Source of the DNA: a virus
Taxonomy: Duplodnaviria > Caudoviricetes
Length of the DNA: 60,203 bases
IMG/VR virus record: IMGVR_UViG_3300044624_002303
Location: 1-60,203 of that record
Strand: one strand, 5' to 3'
Below are positions 1,965-60,203 of this stretch, in pieces. Within the stretch, counting starts at the first letter, position 1, and every line of letters starts with the position of its first letter. The translations under genes were made by a program, and so were the position numbers. The notes beneath the pieces were generated by a model. The model was not told where the DNA came from, searched no databases, and saw only the letters and a program-made list of their open reading frames with translations.

Positions 1965-2678
1965 ATGACTCAGATCACACAAGCTAAACTCAAGGACTTA
2001 ACTGTCATCAAACTCTACGAGCACTACAATGCTCTTGAAAAATCACTGCCTTTACTTACTCCTGAGTCCCAGGAGCTGGCGAAAGCTGAGCTTGAAAGTT
2101 GTGCCAACCTACGCTCAGAAAAGATTGATCGTATCTATTACGCAATGGCGTCCCATGAGGATGCATTGGAACGCATCAAGAAAGAAGGTGACCTAATTAC
2201 GCAGTCCAAGCGGCACCACGAATCCCAACTGCGATCACTCAAAGGCCTGCTAAATTATTTGCGTCGGGTCCTACCACTGGACTCGAACAAAATCACCGGT
2301 CGCAATTACCAGTTCACCCTTGTTAAAAAGAAGGAACTTACAGTCGAGGTCTCATCGGACCCGGAGTTTTGGCACACTACAGAAAGAGAACTTTATTGCG
2401 TTACAGAAGAAATCACCACAACCAAACGAGTTGTATTACGATCAATGTCAGGAGAAGTTCTTGACGAAAGAACAGAACCTAAAACAACCACTAAAGTCCT
2501 CCCTAACCTCGATGCCATACGCAGCGCCTATCAAGAAGGTCGACAGCTCCCACACGGTGTCAAAGTCGTCCAAGAATACTCAGTACGATCCAAGCGCATC
2601 TTTGGAGAGCCAAGGGTGGAAATGGTTTCATCCGAGTATCCAAGCGAGTTTTTACGAGAAGATTCCAGCGCCGACTGA
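1965..2678 (+). CDS. siphovirus Gp157-like protein
   Basis: N-terminal coiled coil (EKIDRIYY...ERIKKE...LKGLLNYL) and C-terminal PNLDAIR...LPHGVKVVQEYSVR typical of Gp157/Gam-like proteins. Confidence 0.6.
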   Translation: MTQITQAKLKDLTVIKLYEHYNALEKSLPLLTPESQELAKAELESCANLRSEKIDRIYYAMASHEDALERIKKEGDLITQSKRHHESQLRSLKGLLNYLRRVLPLDSNKITGRNYQFTLVKKKELTVEVSSDPEFWHTTERELYCVTEEITTTKRVVLRSMSGEVLDERTEPKTTTKVLPNLDAIRSAYQEGRQLPHGVKVVQEYSVRSKRIFGEPRVEMVSSEYPSEFLREDSSAD

Positions 2679-7680: not shown

Positions 7681-7756
7681 GCACCTGGGTAGGAGTCGAA
7701 CCTACATCGTCCTGCAGCGGCAGTAACCGTCTTATCCAATTAGCTCGGACCAGGTG
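7681..7756 (-). ncRNA. tRNA-like RNA with a non-canonical anticodon arm
   Basis: Acceptor CACCTGG/CCAGGTG, T-arm GTAGG-TTCGACT-CCTAC, D-loop AATTGGATA; the anticodon arm closes a 4-nt loop (CTGC-CGCT-GCAG). Confidence 0.65.
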
Positions 7757-7757
7757 A

Positions 7758-7829
7758 TCGGGAATGCAGGGATCGAACCTGCGACTTTCTGCTCCCAAAG
7801 CAGACGCGCTACCGCTGCGCTAATTCCCG
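7758..7829 (-). tRNA. tRNA-Pro(TGG)
   Basis: Canonical cloverleaf: CGGGAAT/ATTCCCG, D-arm GCGC/GCGC, TCTGC-TTTGGGA-GCAGA, T-arm GCAGG-TTCGATC-CCTGC; no encoded CCA. Confidence 0.95.
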
Positions 7830-7832
7830 GTG

Positions 7833-7918
7833 TTAGGGCAAGGATGTCCGCCTACGATGATCTACGATGCGGCCGAGGGGATCCTTTGTTTAATACAACG
7901 TTCCTTGTTGCACCCTGA
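7833..7918 (-). ncRNA. candidate structured ncRNA between tRNAs
   Basis: Ends pair (AGGG..CAAGGA / TCCTTG.CCCT); internal CCGC/GCGG hairpin; no ORF. Confidence 0.4.
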
Positions 7919-7989
7919 TCGGTCGTGCTGGAATCGAACCAGCTTTCTCGTGCATTGTCTGCCCGTCCTTACCAATAGACTACCGACCG
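7919..7989 (-). ncRNA. tRNA-like RNA with a degenerate anticodon arm
   Basis: Acceptor CGGTCG/CGACCG, D-arm GTCT-ATTGGTAA-GGAC, T-arm GCTGG-TTCGATT-CCAGC; anticodon arm GCA-GACAA-TGC has a 5-nt loop and no U33. Confidence 0.65.
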
Positions 7990-7993
7990 AGTG

Positions 7994-56306: not shown

Positions 56307-58514
56307 TTAAAACAGACGCGGTTGAATAACAGCTTGTGAAGTAAGAGGGGTTGAACGTCCTCTTTGCAGCTTACTCATATAAGCCTCTAATTGATTAGCG
56401 GCTATGTCTGCTGGTGATTGACGTTGTCTTGCCGCATACCCCGTAATGCCTTGCAAGCCAAGCTGACTTGGAGGAAGAGAAGATGCCGAATAAGGGTCAC
56501 GCGCTCGATAAGAAGTTTCTTGAGGCTCTAAAGTCTCCATTTGCCTGCGAATAGTAGTAAGTTCATCGGGCAAAACACCTCCTCTTGGATTGCGTTCTGA
56601 AGCAATTCTGTTTGCACGTAAAACAGCTTCTGACATACGAACAGAAGACAAAGCTTGTTTTTGCCGTCCCAGGGCTTCTGTCTCTCCTCGGTAACGCAAA
56701 ACATTTTCTGCTTCTTGCGCGGCTGCAAGACTTGTAGGATCACCTGCAGCTTGTCCCATGAGAACCATCTCATTTAAAGCATTGTCATCTAAGTCAGACA
56801 ATGCACTAACAGTCAATTGATTGACTGTTGGCGTTTGTGCTCCACGGGTAGCAATACGTTGTCCTTTTTGCGTGCCTCCGTAACCTGTGCCAAAAGTTAA
56901 AACATCTTCAGGGGATTCAATATATCCGCCTCCTTCAGTAAGAACATCAGTTGGACGCCTACGTGCAGCAGCTGTATTTGGCAAAACTACACCTTTGGCA
57001 ATGCCACTACGTACTACATCACCAGGAGTACCAGGTCTGATGGCGCCTGCAGGCCGTCCTTCCGTCTCCATACCGTAAATACCTACACCTCCTTTAGGAT
57101 CATTGCGCATGTATTCACGTTGTTGTCCACCAGTGGCCAGTTCAAATTTAGGCTCTTCAACAAAACCACGTCCTCCTTTTCCGCGAATAGATGTACCGCT
57201 TGCGGCTTGAAGAATAGGCGAAAGCCCACTTCCTACATCTGGTTGATAAACAGATTGTCCAACGTAAGATGGTGTTTCTAAGTTAAGAACAGAAGGGCGA
57301 TAACCAGGACGAATTTCTACGCTAGCTGGAATAGGTTGAAGAGTTGTCGGATCTTGTTCAAAGAAAATACGCGATCCCTCTTCAATATTTGGGCGAAGAG
57401 ATGTTGGCCATTCTTTATCAATTGTCTGTTGAGCCCAGCGTTGAGCACCCGCCAGACTGCGTTCTGGTTTGACCAGATAGTTATACCTGACACTGTTAAA
57501 GGTATCGGTAAGATCTTCTAACTCCTCTTGAACGCCTTCAATTTGCATTTGGCGTGCACGACGTTGAACAGGGTCTTTCTCTTGTTGTGCAGCATATTGA
57601 AGCATTCCCAAATCTTCTTCGCGTAAACCAATTTGATTGCGTACGTCATCCAGCTGCATGGCACCTGCTTCTGCTTTTGCTTCTTTTGCGAGACGTATAT
57701 CCCTCACAAATTCACTAATGTTTTCTTGTCTGGGTAGACGGCCTAACGCAACTTCTTCAGTAATATATTTTTGTTTAAACTCAGAAACAGGAATCGGCAT
57801 TCCTGCAATTTCAACGGTGTCCGCTTTTACATTGGTAAACAGGTCGCCACCATAAGTAGCACCAAGTTGCAGTGCATTTTTTCTGCGAGTATAACTAGAG
57901 CCATAGGAACTAGCTTCTGCCCCAAGGCGATTAGCTAATTCGTTTTCAATAAGAGTAGGTGTAGGAATGATTCCTTCTTCTAAAAACTCATCTTGAATTA
58001 AAGCTCTTTCATTTTGCATCCAGCGGCCAGCGGACGTGGAAGCCAAGTCCAAGTCTTCGTTACGTTGAAGCTGTTGTGTGATTTTTCCTTCTTTCTGGCG
58101 CAATCCAGTATCAAGTGTTTTAGAAGCCTGTACCTGAACCAGGGGATCAGTCTGTGCTTTAACGGTGGTTAAATCAACGGTTGATTGTGGAATTGCGGTT
58201 GATTTTTTATAAGAGGCTTTAGAAATTGTCGCCATGCTTTCTGGATTAACAGCAGCACGTTGAACCGATTGATCAGCAGTTTTACGAGCTTTATAAAAGT
58301 TACGTCCTAAAACAGCGGCGCCTAAAACACCCAGGCCTGCTGCTGCGGCACCCAGGATGCCGGGTAAATTTGACTCCTCTTGCGGCGCACGCAGCTGATT
58401 ACGGCGGAATTCAAGGACATCTGGTGCTAACTCTGCCCTTTCTTCCGGATCTTCGGGGTATGGGGTCCCAGTGGCACGGCTGTATGCAGCAAAGTCGGCG
58501 GGAGACAGGGCCAT
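56307..58514 (-). CDS. large hypothetical protein
   Basis: 735 aa; N-terminal TM-like GA stretch; central coiled coil. Confidence 0.7.
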   Translation of the reverse strand: MALSPADFAAYSRATGTPYPEDPEERAELAPDVLEFRRNQLRAPQEESNLPGILGAAAAGLGVLGAAVLGRNFYKARKTADQSVQRAAVNPESMATISKASYKKSTAIPQSTVDLTTVKAQTDPLVQVQASKTLDTGLRQKEGKITQQLQRNEDLDLASTSAGRWMQNERALIQDEFLEEGIIPTPTLIENELANRLGAEASSYGSSYTRRKNALQLGATYGGDLFTNVKADTVEIAGMPIPVSEFKQKYITEEVALGRLPRQENISEFVRDIRLAKEAKAEAGAMQLDDVRNQIGLREEDLGMLQYAAQQEKDPVQRRARQMQIEGVQEELEDLTDTFNSVRYNYLVKPERSLAGAQRWAQQTIDKEWPTSLRPNIEEGSRIFFEQDPTTLQPIPASVEIRPGYRPSVLNLETPSYVGQSVYQPDVGSGLSPILQAASGTSIRGKGGRGFVEEPKFELATGGQQREYMRNDPKGGVGIYGMETEGRPAGAIRPGTPGDVVRSGIAKGVVLPNTAAARRRPTDVLTEGGGYIESPEDVLTFGTGYGGTQKGQRIATRGAQTPTVNQLTVSALSDLDDNALNEMVLMGQAAGDPTSLAAAQEAENVLRYRGETEALGRQKQALSSVRMSEAVLRANRIASERNPRGGVLPDELTTIRRQMETLEPQETSYRARDPYSASSLPPSQLGLQGITGYAARQRQSPADIAANQLEAYMSKLQRGRSTPLTSQAVIQPRLF

Positions 58515-58626
58515 GGGACTAACTATTACCTATTGTTTGCTTGTTATTTGTATTTTAGGCCATGAAATGCGAAAGATTGCAGTAAAGTAGTATGAAGACA
58601 ACAGGAATTGGGTTGTAAGTACCAAG

Positions 58627-58836
58627 ATGAACCCCAAAGATAGAGCTGCTCGCATCACTGCGTTAGACACAATTGCAGATGAGGCCGAAAACCTTGTAAA
58701 AACTGGGGCAGATCCTATTTCAGTGCAGCGATTTGCAATTGGCGCACGGAAAGAACTGGCAAAACAAAAGCCTGATAAGGAATCGCACGTAGAAGCAGCG
58801 ATTAAAGCAAAAAAAGCAAAAGATTTATACAGTTAA
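58627..58836 (+). CDS. hypothetical protein
   Basis: 69 aa ORF followed by a terminator. Confidence 0.6.
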   Translation: MNPKDRAARITALDTIADEAENLVKTGADPISVQRFAIGARKELAKQKPDKESHVEAAIKAKKAKDLYS

Positions 58837-58861
58837 AACACAAAATAATTGCATTAACACA

Positions 58862-58888
58862 GCCGGGGCTTAAAACCCCGGCATTTTT
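58862..58888 (+). terminator. Rho-independent terminator
   Basis: GCCGGGG-CTTAAAA-CCCCGGC-ATTTTT. Confidence 0.7.
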
Positions 58889-59062
58889 GTTTGTATTTTT
58901 GGGCAAAACCCTTGATACTGCTACACATTTTAGGTGTTATGTACATCTTGATACATAAGACCGGCCCTATAGGGACCAAAAAAGGAGAAAAAATTTACTG
59001 ACGCTTCTCCAACACCCCACGCGACATGAATTGCGTATAGAAAAAAAGAAAGGTGGGATGGG

Positions 59063-59407
59063 TTGAAAGTATATCGGGGGCTGCGCATCCGTATCACGCA
59101 GGTTACCACCGCATCCAACACCATGCGAATCCACCAGACACCTCGTATTGAGAAGTCCTGGAAGTATGACTGGCGTTACCACGCTGCAGTCGACGGCAAT
59201 GCTGCCGTTGAGAAGGAGTTTGTCGAGTATGCGACTGGAGTACTCCAGTTGCTGACGACATGCGACAGCGTAGAGTTGGTTAACATACCAACAACGCCGA
59301 GGCACTTGCTGTACTGGTTGCTCCACAAGAGCGACAAGAAGCTAGGGCTGACAGTTTATACCGACGAGCAAGGACTTCGTATAACGAAGGTATCTGTTAT
59401 CCGTTGA
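59063..59407 (+). CDS. hypothetical protein (start may be ATG near 59123)
   Basis: ORF with an AC-rich leader before the internal ATG; followed by a CCCCTGG/CCAGGGG hairpin. Confidence 0.5.
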   Translation: MKVYRGLRIRITQVTTASNTMRIHQTPRIEKSWKYDWRYHAAVDGNAAVEKEFVEYATGVLQLLTTCDSVELVNIPTTPRHLLYWLLHKSDKKLGLTVYTDEQGLRITKVSVIR

Positions 59408-59499
59408 CGGTTACCTCTTCCCCTGGTGAGAGCCAGGGGTTTATGCAGCCCTCAATCCCTACATTCCCCACCTAATTACCGTACAATCCTTGTCAATTC

Positions 59500-59535
59500 A
59501 CTAGGTATTTATACCCACGACTAGGTATTTATACC
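59500..59535. repeat. tandem 16-bp direct repeat containing a palindromic operator-like site
   Basis: ACTAGGTATTTATACC at 59500 and 59520 (20-bp period); core GGTAT-TT-ATACC. Confidence 0.7.
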
Positions 59536-59649
59536 TCGTGCGCGACCCCATTTAGGCTACAGCCGCCTGTTGGTCTTACAGAACAGTTACCAGGATCTTT
59601 CGTCGAGCTGGACGTTAAACGTAGCAACGTTTACACATTACACAACACC

Positions 59650-59829
59650 ATGACTCAACGCATTGCAACCTACGTGATCATCGCTGCTTCCATCATGGGT
59701 ATTGGTGGGCAAGCCGTTATCTACTTCACAGATAAGGCAACTGCTCACCAATGCATTAACCATGACTGGCCTAAGGAGCATGACACACTCCACCGTAACT
59801 GGTGCATCACCAACGGTTACGACATCTGA
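59650..59829 (+). CDS. 59 aa membrane-anchored protein (absent from the ORF track)
   Basis: MTQRIATYVIIAASIMGIGGQAVIYFTDKATAHQCINHDWP...WCITNGYDI. Confidence 0.65.
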   Translation: MTQRIATYVIIAASIMGIGGQAVIYFTDKATAHQCINHDWPKEHDTLHRNWCITNGYDI

Positions 59830-59872
59830 GTCCGTTTAAGCGGCGTTCCAGGGTGCAATCCCCTGGTTCAGA
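59825..59872 (+). repeat. structured intergenic element, copy 1 (mini-tRNA-like)
   Basis: TCTGA/TCAGA outer stem, CCGT-TTAA-GCGG, CCAGGG-TGCAATC-CCCTGG. Confidence 0.65.
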
Positions 59873-59914
59873 CTTGCCTACAGCAGAGATAGGCACTGCA
59901 TACACGGAGTAACC

Positions 59915-60112
59915 GTGGACTATACCGTCAACATCATCGAGCGTAACGGTCAGTACTTCCTCCAAGAAGTCTTTGCAGTTACTGAGTTCCAGTATGTGGA
60001 ACAAGTGACTGCAGGTCCGTTCCAAGCTCGATGGCAAGCGGACGTGCAGCGCTCACAGGAGTACCCGGCATACCGGGGACTAACCGATGAGTACTGCCGT
60101 CTGCAACACTGA
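59915..60112 (+). CDS. hypothetical protein
   Basis: GGAG SD with a GTG start; 65 aa. Confidence 0.6.
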   Translation: MDYTVNIIERNGQYFLQEVFAVTEFQYVEQVTAGPFQARWQADVQRSQEYPAYRGLTDEYCRLQH

Positions 60113-60155
60113 GTCCGTATAAGCGGCATTGGCAGGTGCAATCCCTGCCTTCAGT
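60108..60155 (+). repeat. structured intergenic element, copy 2 (mini-tRNA-like)
   Basis: ACTGA/TCAGT outer stem, CCGT-ATAA-GCGG, GGCAGG-TGCAATC-CCTGCC. Confidence 0.65.
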
Positions 60156-60203
60156 ATTGCCACAACTCAGTGGCATCTCACAACACTACCCATGACTTAC
60201 TAC

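What the first reader, a model, noticed from the sequence alone, without database searches (positions are those of the whole stretch)
59825..60180. Repeated mini-tRNA-like intergenic element with compensatory base changes, starting at each ORF's stop codon
Seen: two 48-nt copies (59825-59872 and 60108-60155), each containing the TGA stop of the preceding gene. Both fold into a three-way junction: an outer stem, a CCGT-NTAA-GCGG hairpin and a hairpin with an invariant TGCAATC loop. The stems covary (CCAGGG/CCCTGG vs GGCAGG/CCTGCC; TCTGA/TCAGA vs ACTGA/TCAGT). GG-TGCAATC-CC resembles a tRNA T-arm. Each copy is followed by a TGCC..GGCA hairpin and then the next gene. Inference: a cassette architecture in which tRNA-like units direct RNase P/Z cleavage or stabilise early mRNAs, or act as recombination points for swapping early genes.
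Basis: partly seen in the sequence, partly recalled or inferred. Interest (0 to 1): 0.8.

Follow-up and report, generated by a model that had tools for sequence, protein, structure and literature searches.

The report
Mini-tRNA punctuation between cyanophage early genes
Between the small early genes of a freshwater cyanobacterial virus sit tiny RNA folds that imitate the top half of a transfer RNA, probably showing the host's tRNA-trimming enzymes where to cut the long message; the same fold, for which I found no description, also occurs in the host bacteria.

Summary
They belong to a large RNA family that none of my Rfam scans matched. A scan keyed only on the first hairpin found 116 distinct contexts. 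Of these, 99 carry a T-arm of at least 6 bp (26 different stems), 98 an acceptor-like stem, and 94 the following TT[GA]CC hairpin. Covariation is strong: 97% of cells pair across 99 distinct sequences, against 31-46% in slid controls. G·U outnumbers A·C 129 to 12, so the sense-strand RNA folds.

The fold is tRNA-like. Acceptor plus T stems total 11-13 bp, mostly 12. The 7-nt loop keeps C56, R57 and A58. One discriminator-like base precedes the next hairpin. Diverged copies have canonical T-loops or a mini-cloverleaf. tRNA finders do not call any of them.

The upstream stop codon sits inside the element (81 of 84 TGA). The phage is an S-EIV1-like Synechococcus phage, and the cultured isolate carries two copies. 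Gene order between elements differs among relatives. In addition, 31 of 151 sampled picocyanobacterial genomes carry the fold in 3' UTRs.

Cleavage by RNase Z, P or E is inferred, not shown.

The parts
59420..59442 (+). Terminator-like hairpin (CCCCTGG/CCAGGGG followed by TTT) ending the preceding gene (59063-59407); it marks the upstream border of the early array.
   Evidence: Sequence read. The same hairpin stands before the array in relative G001. The simple terminator scan did not list it because the T-run is short.
59650..59829 (+). Small early ORF (59 aa, family F0, hydrophobic N-terminus). Its stop TGA at 59827-59829 lies inside element a.
   Evidence: F0 is the commonest cassette in relatives (15 distinct versions). 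No PHROG hit.
59825..59872 (+). tRNA-like element a. Acceptor-like stem 59825-59830 with 59867-59872 (6 bp, including G.U). Hairpin 1: CCGT 59832-59835 with GCGG 59840-59843. T-like stem 59848-59853 with 59861-59866. 7-nt loop TGCAATC at 59854-59860.
   Evidence: MFE fold. R1 77.5 bits. R2 39.0 bits, E 2.3e-10. Script parse.
59873..59873 (+). Single unpaired C in the position of the tRNA discriminator base (13th nt after the T-loop).
   Evidence: The distance from the end of the T-loop to the TTGCC hairpin is 13 nt in 64 of 84 elements and 14 nt in 20 of 84.
59874..59895 (+). Hairpin 3, type b: TT + TGCCTA 59875-59880 paired with TAGGCA 59890-59895, 9-nt loop containing AGAGAT.
   Evidence: Relatives have TGCCC/GGGCA, TGCCT/AGGCA and TACCC/GGGTA versions.
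59883..59899 (+). Second covarying helix that overlaps hairpin 3 (GCAG 59883-59886 with CTGC 59896-59899). It is an alternative pairing or an unusual knot.
   Evidence: 76 of 90 distinct type-b-like stretches have a perfect 4-bp helix here, in 7 versions; shifted controls give 0, 1 and 0.
59906..60112 (+). GGAG (59906-59909), GTG start at 59915, ORF of 65 aa (family F11). Its stop TGA at 60110-60112 lies inside element b.
   Evidence: F11 also occurs between F0 and F1 in L005.
60108..60155 (+). tRNA-like element b. Acceptor-like stem 60108-60113 with 60150-60155. Hairpin 1 60115-60126. T-like stem 60131-60136 with 60144-60149. Loop TGCAATC at 60137-60143.
   Evidence: R1 96.3 bits. R2 40.3 bits, E 8.2e-11.
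60156..60175 (+). Discriminator-like A (60156), T (60157), then hairpin 3 type a: TGCCAC 60158-60163 paired with GTGGCA 60170-60175, 6-nt loop.
   Evidence: Exact TTGCCACAAT...GTGGCA hairpins occur in 88 viral stretches.
60176..60203 (+). 16-nt G-free, C/A-rich leader without a Shine-Dalgarno sequence (60176-60191), then the ATG (60192) of the next cassette ORF, which is cut off by the contig end.
   Evidence: Relatives have 16-18-nt leaders of the same make-up. The record is an estimated 76% complete.

Best explanation
The two copies belong to a large family of sense-strand RNA structures that imitate the acceptor/T-arm half of a tRNA. The defining features are a 12-bp stack, a T-loop with C56-R57-A58, a small hairpin in place of the D and anticodon arms, and one discriminator-like base. 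In S-EIV1-like Synechococcus phages they stand in tandem at the head of the early/replication transcription unit. One follows each small ORF, with the ORF's stop codon built into the 5' strand of the acceptor-like stem. Each is followed immediately by a TTGCC hairpin and the leader of the next ORF. Most likely mechanism (inferred): host RNA polymerase makes one polycistronic early RNA. The host's tRNA-end-processing machinery reads each mimic as a CCA-less pre-tRNA and cuts after the discriminator-like base. That machinery would be RNase Z, or RNase E at the A|UU junction, with RNase P possibly also acting on the 5' side. The upstream mRNA then keeps its stop codon and ends in a compact tRNA-like 3' cap. 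The downstream mRNA begins with a hairpin one base from its 5' end, which would shield it from 5'-end-dependent decay. As a by-product, the conserved about 70-nt module is a homology patch at which small early genes are exchanged between phages. Shown: the structure, the strand, the tRNA-like geometry, the genomic position, the cassette variability, and the presence of the fold in a cultured phage and in host genomes. Inferred: which enzyme acts, where it cuts, and the effect on stability.
For: Structure. On the R1-fitted alignment of 126 hits (99 distinct), 97.0% of cells pair, against 77.2% in shuffles (0 of 500 reach the observed value) and 31-46% in slid controls. 15 of 21 pairs show double changes, in 363 cells. 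On a gapless MAFFT alignment of 50 elements, RNAalifold predicts the same three-way junction unaided, and 12 of 16 pairs have compensatory changes. In an unbiased sample of 116 contexts found by the hairpin-1 pattern alone, 101 have the T-loop motif, 99 a T stem of at least 6 bp (26 stem versions), 98 the acceptor pairing, and 94 the TT[GA]CC hairpin.

Strand. G.U/U.G fills 129 cells and A.C/C.A 12 (50 against 12 without the invariant hairpin-1 U.G). Every copy lies on the coding strand of the flanking ORFs.

tRNA likeness, on 84 distinct elements. Loop position 3 is C in 84 of 84, position 4 is R in 84 of 84, and position 5 is A in 83 of 84. The closing pair is G-C in 77 of 84. Acceptor plus T stem is 11 bp in 24, 12 bp in 52 and 13 bp in 8, whatever the split (4+7 up to 8+4). 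The distance from the T-loop to the next hairpin is 13 nt in 64 and 14 nt in 20, compared with 13 nt for tRNA positions 61-73. For 134 class I/I' elements the stem sums are 11 bp in 34, 12 bp in 83 and 13 bp in 17. Diverged copies have canonical loops (TTCGATT, TTCAATT, ATCGAAT) and a four-arm mini-cloverleaf.

Context. Hits cluster in one same-strand array per record, spaced about 260-285 nt. R2 finds 2, 3, 2 and 2 copies in the window, G001, G002 and S-EIVl, all within the arrays. The simple scan finds no sigma70-like promoter on the + strand inside the array. I found no phage RNA polymerase among the ORFs scanned. The phage's own tRNA genes lack an encoded CCA. The terminase is 82.2% identical to that of Synechococcus phage S-EIVl.

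Host. 31 of 151 sampled genomes of the Prochlorococcus family carry 1-2 copies in 3' UTRs. In the larger genomes the copy is followed by a TTGCC hairpin with a U-run.

Cassettes. Gene orders include F3-F0-F2-F1, F0-F4-F1, F0-F11-F1, F0-F3-F1 and others. Chimeric acceptor ends also occur.
Against: No RNA end has been mapped. The laid metatranscriptome contigs are fragments of relatives, and some of them run across the 5' border of element a. At most, that shows uncut molecules exist. Loop position 2 is G in 50 of 84 elements where tRNA has U55. ARAGORN and the Rfam tRNA model do not recognise any copy. A 5' cut by RNase P would remove the stop codon from the upstream mRNA. Some elements have only 11 stacked pairs or a 1-nt bulge. 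In the S-EIVl isolate, the first element is not used as the stop of the upstream ORF, which ends about 45 nt earlier. In Prochlorococcus the element has no following hairpin and simply precedes a U-rich stretch, which could point to a role in termination or 3'-end formation unrelated to tRNA enzymes. The pairing percentages lean towards the structure, because one alignment is model-fitted and the other uses script-selected sequences.
Confidence: 0.5

Rival explanations
1. The fold is an RNA 3'-end or translation element that does not use tRNA enzymes. It could block 3' exonucleases, assist or modulate termination, bind a host protein, or bring the stop codon close to the next SD-less start so that terminating ribosomes re-initiate. 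On this reading the tRNA likeness reflects a generic T-loop three-way junction.
For: Host copies sit in 3' UTRs, 5-20 nt after a stop codon. They stand directly before a U-rich stretch in Prochlorococcus, or before a hairpin with a U-run in the larger genomes. In 81 of 84 phage elements the stop codon lies inside the stem, and acceptor variants keep a stop (TAA with TTA/TAA pairing). This suggests coupling with the terminating ribosome. Type-a modules are followed by SD-less leaders 16-18 nt long. Loop position 2 is G rather than U in 50 of 84 elements.
Against: The phage copies have no U-run after either structure, and the scan lists no terminator-like site in 59825-60203. The tRNA-like elements also precede genes with ordinary GGAG sites (window copy a). 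SD-less leaders also occur after unrelated hairpins. So the mimic is not tied to one mode of initiation. A generic junction does not explain the conserved 12-bp ruler, the single discriminator-like base, or the drift of some copies towards canonical T-loops and a cloverleaf.
Confidence: 0.25
2. The element is mainly a DNA-level recombination module. It would be a conserved boundary at which promoterless small-gene cassettes are swapped between phages, and any RNA structure would be secondary.
For: Cassette order and content differ among relatives while the modules stay the same. Chimeric elements join the 5' acceptor base of one variant to the 3' base or T-arm of another (L003, L004b, L009/L114). 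The same ORF family is followed by different element variants.
Against: Compensatory changes keep the pairing through at least 26 stem versions, which homology-driven exchange does not require. G.U is tolerated but A.C is not (129 against 12), so selection acts on one strand as RNA. Loop bases that matter for a T-loop are invariant. I found no integrase or transposase among the ORFs scanned (only part of the ORFs were scanned). Host copies are single, in 3' UTRs.
Confidence: 0.15
3. The mimics are excised and act in trans as small RNAs, for example as decoys for tRNA-targeting host defences or as competitors for RNase P, CCA-adding or T-arm-modifying enzymes. The gene boundaries would be incidental.
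For: There are several copies per genome, at the very start of the early region. The acceptor/T-arm half is what most tRNA-binding enzymes read (my own knowledge). Canonical T-loops occur in some classes.
Against: There is no anticodon arm, so anticodon nucleases would not be decoyed. Excision needs a 5' cut that destroys the upstream stop codon. Host genomes keep single copies in 3' UTRs. No small-RNA data are available.
Confidence: 0.07
4. The elements are decaying remnants of phage tRNA genes and have no present function.
For: One class looks like a tRNA with internal deletions (a D-arm-like AGCTGGTGCGC next to a canonical T-arm). The phage carries real tRNA genes elsewhere.
Against: Structure is conserved with compensatory changes across more than 100 distinct copies. 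The placement at stop codons is constant. The fold is present in a cultured phage and in 31 of 151 host-family genomes.
Confidence: 0.03

Closest known systems
t-elements of plant mitochondrial mRNAs (Forner et al. 2007, PMC1920247; I read the abstract), and more broadly the tRNA punctuation of animal mitochondrial transcripts (recalled)
   Same: tRNA-like folds without decoding function lie at mRNA borders inside polycistronic transcripts, and are proposed as cis-signals for RNase Z and/or RNase P.
   Different: Here the setting is a bacteriophage and its bacterial host. The element is a 39-58-nt minimal mimic that mostly lacks the anticodon arm, occurs in a tandem array, and contains the upstream stop codon. 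No transcript ends have been mapped.
mascRNA at the 3' end of MALAT1 (recalled, no call)
   Same: A tRNA-like structure at the 3' end of a longer RNA is cut out by RNase P and RNase Z and receives CCA. It defines the 3' end of the upstream RNA.
   Different: mascRNA is eukaryotic and a single copy. RNase P makes the functional cut on the 5' side, which in this phage would delete the stop codon.
RNase III processing sites between the early genes of phage T7 (recalled)
   Same: Repeated structured intergenic elements cut a polycistronic early mRNA into units, and the remaining hairpins stabilise the pieces.
   Different: The T7 sites are long irregular duplexes read by RNase III. The helices here are 4-8 bp, arranged as a tRNA-like junction.
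PeSL (promoter-early stem-loop) cassettes of T4-type phages (recalled)
   Same: Repeated regulatory modules flank small early ORFs in a plastic region and appear to mediate modular shuffling.
   Different: PeSLs carry an early promoter. The simple scan finds no sigma70-like promoter in the module here, and the structure is a tRNA mimic rather than a plain stem-loop.
Acceptor/T-arm minihelix model substrates of RNase P, tRNase Z and the CCA-adding enzyme (recalled)
   Same: A 12-bp stack capped by a T-loop, plus a discriminator base, is the minimal unit these enzymes measure.
   Different: Those are laboratory constructs. Here nature appears to use the minimal unit, with an extra small hairpin.
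Candidate structured RNAs predicted in IMG/VR (PMC10690425, 2023; I read passages)
   Same: That screen also used covariation on IMG/VR intergenic regions, and it reports unnamed tRNA-like candidates.
   Different: I could not check whether this motif is among its 8,495 IMG/VR candidates. The files that could not be read (files 1 and 2), presumably the alignments, were not searched. The paper's text describes no element of this anatomy.

Membership tests
Genuine tRNA gene | Recognised by tRNA detectors (cloverleaf with anticodon arm) | tested here: not met
   In the window ARAGORN finds only the tRNAs at 7758-7990, and it finds none in 10 array loci. Rfam RF00005 gives no hit on the elements, even at E<=10 in the window region and E<=5 in six array loci.
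Genuine tRNA gene | 12-bp acceptor/T-arm stack and 13 nt from the T-loop to the discriminator | tested here: met
   Stem sums are 11, 12 and 13 bp in 24, 52 and 8 of 84 elements. The distance is 13 nt in 64 of 84 and 14 nt in 20 of 84.
Genuine tRNA gene | T-loop U54-U55-C56-R57-A58 closed by G53-C61 | tested here: inconclusive
   C56 in 84 of 84, R57 in 84 of 84, A58 in 83 of 84, and a G-C closing pair in 77 of 84. However, position 55 is G in 50 of 84, and position 54 is T in 59, A in 23 and G in 2 of 84. The consensus itself is recalled.
tRNA-like processing signals (t-element / mascRNA kind) | A non-decoding tRNA-like fold inside a longer transcript, at a gene border | tested here: met
   The elements lie between ORFs on the coding strand, and the simple scan finds no promoter.
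tRNA-like processing signals (t-element / mascRNA kind) | Transcript 5' or 3' ends map at the borders of the element | not testable with these tools
   Only Logan contigs of metatranscriptomes were available. Contigs cannot show RNA ends.
tRNA-like processing signals (t-element / mascRNA kind) | Cleavage by RNase P and/or RNase Z | not testable with these tools
   This needs an enzyme assay.
Intrinsic (Rho-independent) terminator | G+C-rich hairpin directly followed by a U-run | tested here: not met
   The scan finds no terminator-like site in 59825-60203. Host versions in the larger genomes do have a U-run after the TTGCC hairpin.
RNase III site of T7 type | Extended duplex of about 20 bp or more | tested here: not met
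   The longest helix is 6-8 bp. The criterion is recalled.
DNA repeat or recombination site (integron attC, REP/MITE) | Acts as DNA, with no strand-specific RNA pairing rules, and is associated with a recombinase | tested here: not met
   G.U 129 against A.C 12. No integrase or transposase was found among the 18, 12 and 50 ORFs scanned.
T4-type PeSL cassette module | Early promoter within the repeated module | tested here: not met
   The simple scan finds no sigma70-like site on the + strand of 58500-60203. The scan is crude.
T4-type PeSL cassette module | Small ORFs between modules vary among relatives | tested here: met
   There are 15 ORF families, and orders differ among 25 distinct arrays.
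Any Rfam 15 family (including tmRNA, YrlA and cyanobacterial motifs) | Covariance-model match | tested here: not met
   Searches (phage; host loci): no relevant hit.

The most novel reading that the evidence does not exclude
Picocyanobacteria and their S-EIV1-like phages share a mini-tRNA RNA family for which I found no description. The family implements a bacterial version of tRNA punctuation. The stop codon is built into the acceptor stem, so that translation termination and RNA cutting are mechanically coupled: a terminating ribosome melts the mimic, and an idle message is cut. The phage has multiplied a host 3'-UTR module (mimic plus TTGCC hairpin) into a cassette system for its early genes. 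The excised 45-60-nt mini-tRNAs may additionally act in trans on host tRNA enzymes or defences.
Probability: 0.3. Interest if true: 0.9.

Novelty: new variant of a known kind. Interest (0 to 1): 0.78.

Why it matters
tRNA-like punctuation of polycistronic RNA is textbook for mitochondria and known for a few eukaryotic lncRNAs. My six answered literature searches (plus, which was aimed at the S-EIV1 papers) and four Rfam scans found no description of it for phage early mRNAs, and no family of this shape.

If the inference holds, it would show how a phage that relies on host RNA polymerase turns one early transcript into many separately stabilised messages using only host tRNA enzymes. It would also explain how its accessory early genes are packaged as exchangeable cassettes.

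The family is large, with at least 134 distinct class I/I' sequences. It is present in a cultured phage-host pair (S-EIVl and Synechococcus sp. PCCC-A2c). It also occurs in Prochlorococcus and Synechococcus genomes. It is therefore directly testable and ecologically relevant. The minimal mimic (39-58 nt) could also serve as a compact processing tag for synthetic operons in cyanobacteria.

Tried and rejected
(1) One search used a pattern whose gap I had set too short (4-8 nt; the true gap is 10 nt). It found nothing and has no meaning beyond identifying the record.

(2) blastn of 59400-60203 against cultured phages gave no match. The element in S-EIVl was found only with the covariance model.

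(3) RNA evidence. The run search found 14 DNA rows holding at least half of the sampled words, mostly lake-water metagenomes, and 6 RNA rows with small shares. I laid 4 RNA runs, all kept as contigs. The cover was patchy and came from relatives. Contigs of one study stop 12 nt after 59866, inside the repeated TTGCC sequence, which is what an assembler does at a repeat. No conclusion on transcription or RNA ends follows.

About 350 chance hits are expected for 17 specified bases (my arithmetic). Only 16 loci passed a T-stem test. Twelve were Prochlorococcus, one was a likely mis-binned phage contig (L358), one was a Clostridia MAG copy with full pairing (L331), and two were doubtful (L274, L312).

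(5) L083 and L084 hold a real tRNA-Arg followed by the same TTGCCAC hairpin. These contigs are unrelated to this phage by tblastx and blastn. I treat this as a lead only.

(6) I considered hammerhead or other small ribozymes, SECIS-like read-through of the TGA, and N4-type hairpin promoters, and dropped all three. There are no ribozyme core motifs and no Rfam hit. The compensatory changes alter the would-be read-through peptide (PG versus GR). No giant virion RNA polymerase was seen in the window or in 42-62 kb of G001.

(7) I considered the permuted two-piece tmRNA of marine cyanobacteria (passage read in PMC1242208). I rejected it because the strand order here is 5' acceptor, then T-arm, then 3' acceptor, which is not permuted, and ARAGORN calls no tmRNA.

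(8) Aminoacylation identity (G3.U70 for AlaRS, recalled) does not fit: the third pair is C-G in 42 of 50 elements.

(9) The original S-EIV1 paper (Chenard et al. 2015, PMC4542036) is not held, so I do not know whether it mentions the repeats.

(10) The search of earlier findings found nothing by sequence and only analogues in other genomes by words.
Full report
**1. The observation**

The window is an IMG/VR virus record of 60,203 bp, linear, with an estimated completeness of 76%. Each begins two bases before the TGA of a small ORF: 59650-59829 (59 aa) and 59915-60112 (65 aa, GTG start). Each folds by minimum free energy into the described three-way junction, at -16.0 and -16.8 kcal/mol with z about -2.

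Inside the window alone the case is weak. There are only two copies. The 18-nt core pattern is expected 0.38 times, and 4 of 100 shuffles reach two matches. The antisense strand folds about as well. A covariance model run over the whole window without filters finds only these two copies (96.3 and 77.5 bits; the next best is 10.9 bits). The evidence that matters comes from relatives.

**2. Relatives and the size of the family**

An exact-pattern scan of viral contigs gave nine stretches (two overlapping on one contig), holding 12 more copies on eight contigs. I built model R1 from these and ran it over the full records of five relatives. Every clear hit lay in one same-strand tandem array, spaced about 260-285 nt. 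In the complete 80.6-kb record G001, for example, there are five elements between 61,847 and 62,987.

Two further scans keyed on a single sub-motif each:
- The downstream hairpin pattern gave 88 stretches.

The second scan gives an unbiased test, because its pattern says nothing about the rest of the fold. Among its 116 distinct contexts:
- 101 have the T-loop-like motif at the right distance.
- 99 have a T stem of at least 6 bp, in 26 different stem sequences.
- 98 pair the CTG of the 5' strand with the three bases after the T stem.
- 94 are followed by TT[GA]CC.

The other 15 look like chance hits.

**3. Structure and strand**

On the R1-fitted alignment of 126 hits (99 distinct), 97.0% of cells form standard pairs. 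Shuffles give 77.2%, and 0 of 500 reach the observed value. Slid controls give 31-46%. Double changes occur at 15 of 21 pairs, in 363 cells.

I also made a gapless MAFFT alignment of 50 elements, 46 from phages and 4 from Prochlorococcus. On it, RNAalifold predicts the same junction without my input, and 12 of 16 pairs carry compensatory changes.

Both pairing percentages lean towards the structure, because one alignment is model-fitted and the other uses script-selected sequences. The count does not share that bias.

G.U/U.G pairs fill 129 cells and A.C/C.A only 12. Without the invariant U.G that closes hairpin 1, the figures are 50 against 12. All copies lie on the coding strand of their neighbours. 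The selected object is therefore the sense-strand RNA.

**4. Why I call it tRNA-like**

A script parsed 105 distinct contexts upstream of the exact hairpin. Of these, 89 resolved into an acceptor-like stem plus a stem with a 7-nt loop. Two of the 89 are real tRNAs. The 16 unparsed contexts are 15 chance hits plus one copy with a mismatch.

For the 84 distinct elements that had enough flank:
- Loop position 3 is C in 84 of 84, position 4 is a purine in 84 of 84, and position 5 is A in 83 of 84.
- The closing pair is G-C in 77, C-G in 6 and G.T in 1.
- The two stacked stems add up to 11 bp in 24, 12 bp in 52 and 13 bp in 8. This holds however the pairs are divided (4+7, 5+7, 6+6, 6+5, 7+5, 8+4).
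- The next hairpin starts 13 nt after the loop in 64 and 14 nt after it in 20.

In a tRNA, positions 61-73 are 13 nt, and the acceptor and T stems stack to 12 bp (textbook knowledge).

The window's loop TGCAATC is one of the common versions: TGCAAAC occurs 25 times, TGCAATC 15, ATCGAAT 14 and ATCAAAT 8. Diverged copies carry canonical T-loops (TTCGATT, TTCAATT). One class is a four-arm mini-cloverleaf, with a D-like hairpin and a 3-bp GNRA-capped arm in place of the anticodon arm.

In the two window copies, G6 pairs with U43, so the stack is 6+6 = 12 bp with no bulge.

Departures from tRNA:
- There is no anticodon arm.
- Loop position 2 is G in 50 of 84 elements.
- There is no encoded CCA.
- Neither ARAGORN nor the Rfam tRNA model nor any other Rfam family reports the elements.

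**5. The stop codon**

In 81 of 84 elements the upstream ORF ends in TGA, and in 3 of 84 in TAA. The stop lies inside the element. In 60 of 84 it starts 0-3 nt into the 5' strand of the acceptor-like stem.

The window's 60 non-overlapping ORFs of at least 100 aa use TAA 29 times, TGA 23 times and TAG 8 times. The bias is therefore a property of the element.

Where the stem sequence changes, a stop is kept. Examples are ...GTGA/CAC......TTGA/CAA... and ...TTAA/TAA....

In the cultured isolate S-EIVl, one of the two elements is not used as a stop; the upstream ORF ends about 45 nt earlier. In Prochlorococcus the stop lies 5-20 nt upstream. The overlap is thus typical of the phages, but it is not needed for the fold.

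**6. What follows the element**

After one unpaired base (sometimes two) comes TT[GA]CC, which opens a hairpin.
- Type a (window copy b) is TGCCAC/GTGGCA or a covarying version. It is followed by a 16-18-nt G-poor, C/A-rich leader without a Shine-Dalgarno sequence, and then an ATG.
- Type b (window copy a) is TGCCY(N)/(N)RGGCA with a loop containing GGAGAT or AGAGAT. It is followed by an ordinary GGAG and a GTG or ATG.

In type b, a second 4-bp helix joins part of the loop to the four bases directly after the hairpin. It is perfect in 76 of 90 distinct stretches and occurs in 7 versions. Shifted controls give 0, 1 and 0. No linker separates the two 3' arms, so an ordinary H-type pseudoknot seems sterically unlikely (my reasoning). 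The two helices may instead alternate. I leave this unexplained.

**7. Genome and host**

PHROG and Pfam hits show a tailed dsDNA phage (terminase, portal-like protein, major head protein, primase, exonuclease).

In G001 the array heads a long same-strand block that runs on through thymidylate synthase, DNA polymerase and SSB. No phage RNA polymerase was seen among the ORFs scanned. The simple scan finds no sigma70-like promoter on the + strand inside the window's array. Co-transcription by host polymerase from upstream is therefore the simplest reading, though it is inferred.

The terminase is 82.2% identical to that of Synechococcus phage S-EIVl (KJ410740.1). That record is 79,178 bp; its host is Synechococcus sp. 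PCCC-A2c, from a high arctic lake. The DNA runs that hold the stretch are mostly lake-water metagenomes.

Both models find two copies in S-EIVl, behind small hypothetical genes at about 43.4-43.8 kb. R2 finds 2, 3, 2 and 2 copies in the window, G001, G002 and S-EIVl, and none outside the arrays at E<=0.01.

The phage's own tRNA genes have no encoded CCA. That fits a host in which 3' ends of tRNAs are made by an endonuclease and CCA is then added (the pathway is recalled).

**8. Cassettes**

ORFs that follow type-a hairpins fall into 15 families. Their order differs between relatives:
- F3-F0-F2-F1
- F0-F4-F1
- F3-F0-F1
- F0-F11-F1 (the window has F0-F11 and is then cut off)
- F0-F2-F1
- F0-F3-F1
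- F7-F0-...-F2-F1
- F5-F0-F6
- F14-F0-F4

Some elements are chimeras. They have the 5' acceptor base of one variant with the 3' base of another, giving a T..T mismatch, or one variant's T-arm inside another's acceptor.

**9. Host copies**

The single genome-contig scan was mostly noise; about 350 chance hits are expected. But 12 of the 16 loci that passed a T-stem test were Prochlorococcus.

I built model R2 on the tRNA-like part alone and ran it over 151 sampled genomes of that family. It found 1-2 copies in 31 genomes, whose sizes range from 1.1 to 3.7 Mb.

In Prochlorococcus the element lies in a 3' UTR after an Ala/Lys-rich ORF and before a U-rich stretch. In the larger genomes it overlaps the TGA of an SSB-like ORF next to a DUF932 gene. 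There it is followed, after one base, by a TTGCC hairpin with a U-run, which is a terminator.

The phage module of mimic plus TTGCC hairpin therefore has a cellular counterpart. Rfam has no match for the host copies either.

**10. Mechanism**

The geometry that is conserved is exactly what RNase P, tRNase Z and the CCA-adding enzyme measure on tRNA precursors (recalled). That geometry is the T-loop, a stack of about 12 bp, and one discriminator-like base.

The stop codon lies in the 5' strand, so a 5' cut would leave the upstream mRNA without a stop. A cut after the discriminator-like base would give the upstream mRNA a tRNA-like 3' end. It would also give the downstream mRNA a hairpin one base from its 5' end. 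I therefore favour 3'-side cutting, by RNase Z or by RNase E at A|UU. RNase P may act as well.

Nothing here shows cleavage. I put this model at 0.5. The rivals are:
- a tRNA-enzyme-independent role in 3' ends, termination or translational coupling, at 0.25;
- a primarily recombinational role, at 0.15;
- trans-acting mini-tRNAs, at 0.07;
- dead tRNA genes, at 0.03.

**11. Literature**

Six answered full-text searches, one of them aimed only at the S-EIV1 papers, found no description of such elements in phage early regions or picocyanobacteria.

The closest documented kind is the plant mitochondrial t-element (PMC1920247; I read the abstract).

A 2023 screen of IMG/VR reports unnamed tRNA-like candidates (PMC10690425; I read passages). 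Two of its supplementary files could not be read and one was not fetched, so this motif may be among them.

The S-EIV1 genome paper is not held.

It gave me the identifier of the t-element paper.

**12. Limits**

- All functional statements are inferences from anatomy.
- The class boundaries and stem sums come from my own parsing script, which takes the longest pairing allowed by a fixed spacing.
- Kinship labels of the G handles are not given. "Prochlorococcus family" rests on the record titles of the loci that led to them.

Noticed in passing
Not in the window (its early region is cut off). Seen at G001 about 63,000, 59,650, 58,590, 57,540 and 57,040 (minus strand), and at L125 about 2440-2480 (minus strand).: A second repeated intergenic element lies further down the early region of relatives. 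It has an outer stem CCTGGG/CCCAGG enclosing CATCC, a short GTAA-capped or longer insert, and GG-T[GA]TAAGT. It looks like a cut-down relative of the mimic, with hairpin 1 and a T-loop-like heptamer but no T stem.
   Followed up: no
window 59500-59535: An exact tandem pair of the 16-mer ACTAGGTATTTATACC, 20 nt apart, lies upstream of the array and after the terminator-like hairpin. It may be the early promoter or an operator region. The simple sigma70 scan finds nothing there.
   Followed up: partly
window about 7686-7757, minus strand: Directly after tRNA-Pro lies a cloverleaf-like sequence with a 7-bp acceptor pairing and a TAGG-TTCGACT-CCTA T-arm. ARAGORN and Rfam do not call it. ARAGORN's second tRNA (7917-7990) is read as Cys with the unusual anticodon ACA.
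   Followed up: no
L083 2519-2594 (-) and L084 2426-2501 (+): In two small, unrelated, AT-rich cyanophage-like contigs, a genuine tRNA-Arg(TCT) is followed right after its discriminator base by the same TTGCCACAAT...GTGGCA hairpin that follows the mimics. This could be chance, or it could hint that this hairpin is a preferred tRNA 3' trailer.
   Followed up: partly
window 59883-59899; 76 of 90 type-b stretches in relatives: A second covarying 4-bp helix overlaps the loop and the 3' flank of the type-b downstream hairpin. The two helices cannot easily coexist, so this may be a conformational switch next to the Shine-Dalgarno sequence.
   Followed up: partly
L257 1495-1541; L367 (G006 1,767,401-1,767,447); L386 1501-1547; 31 of 151 genomes: Prochlorococcus and Synechococcus/Cyanobium-sized genomes carry 1-2 copies of the same fold in 3' UTRs. 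In one 3.3-Mb genome there are two equally scoring copies, one of them next to SSB-like and DUF932 genes, which suggests a mobile region.
   Followed up: partly
window 59628-59649 and 60176-60191; many loci: Many early ORFs of this phage lineage start after G-poor, C/A-rich leaders (of the kind ...ACTCAACNCAAC...) with no Shine-Dalgarno sequence. Other genes of the same phages have clear GGAG sites.
   Followed up: no
L331 286-334 (-): A contig of a Clostridia MAG from a rabbit gut sample holds a perfectly paired copy of the mimic (R2 45.2 bits). This is outside the cyanobacterial setting. It could be contamination, a phage contig, or a wider distribution of the family.
   Followed up: no
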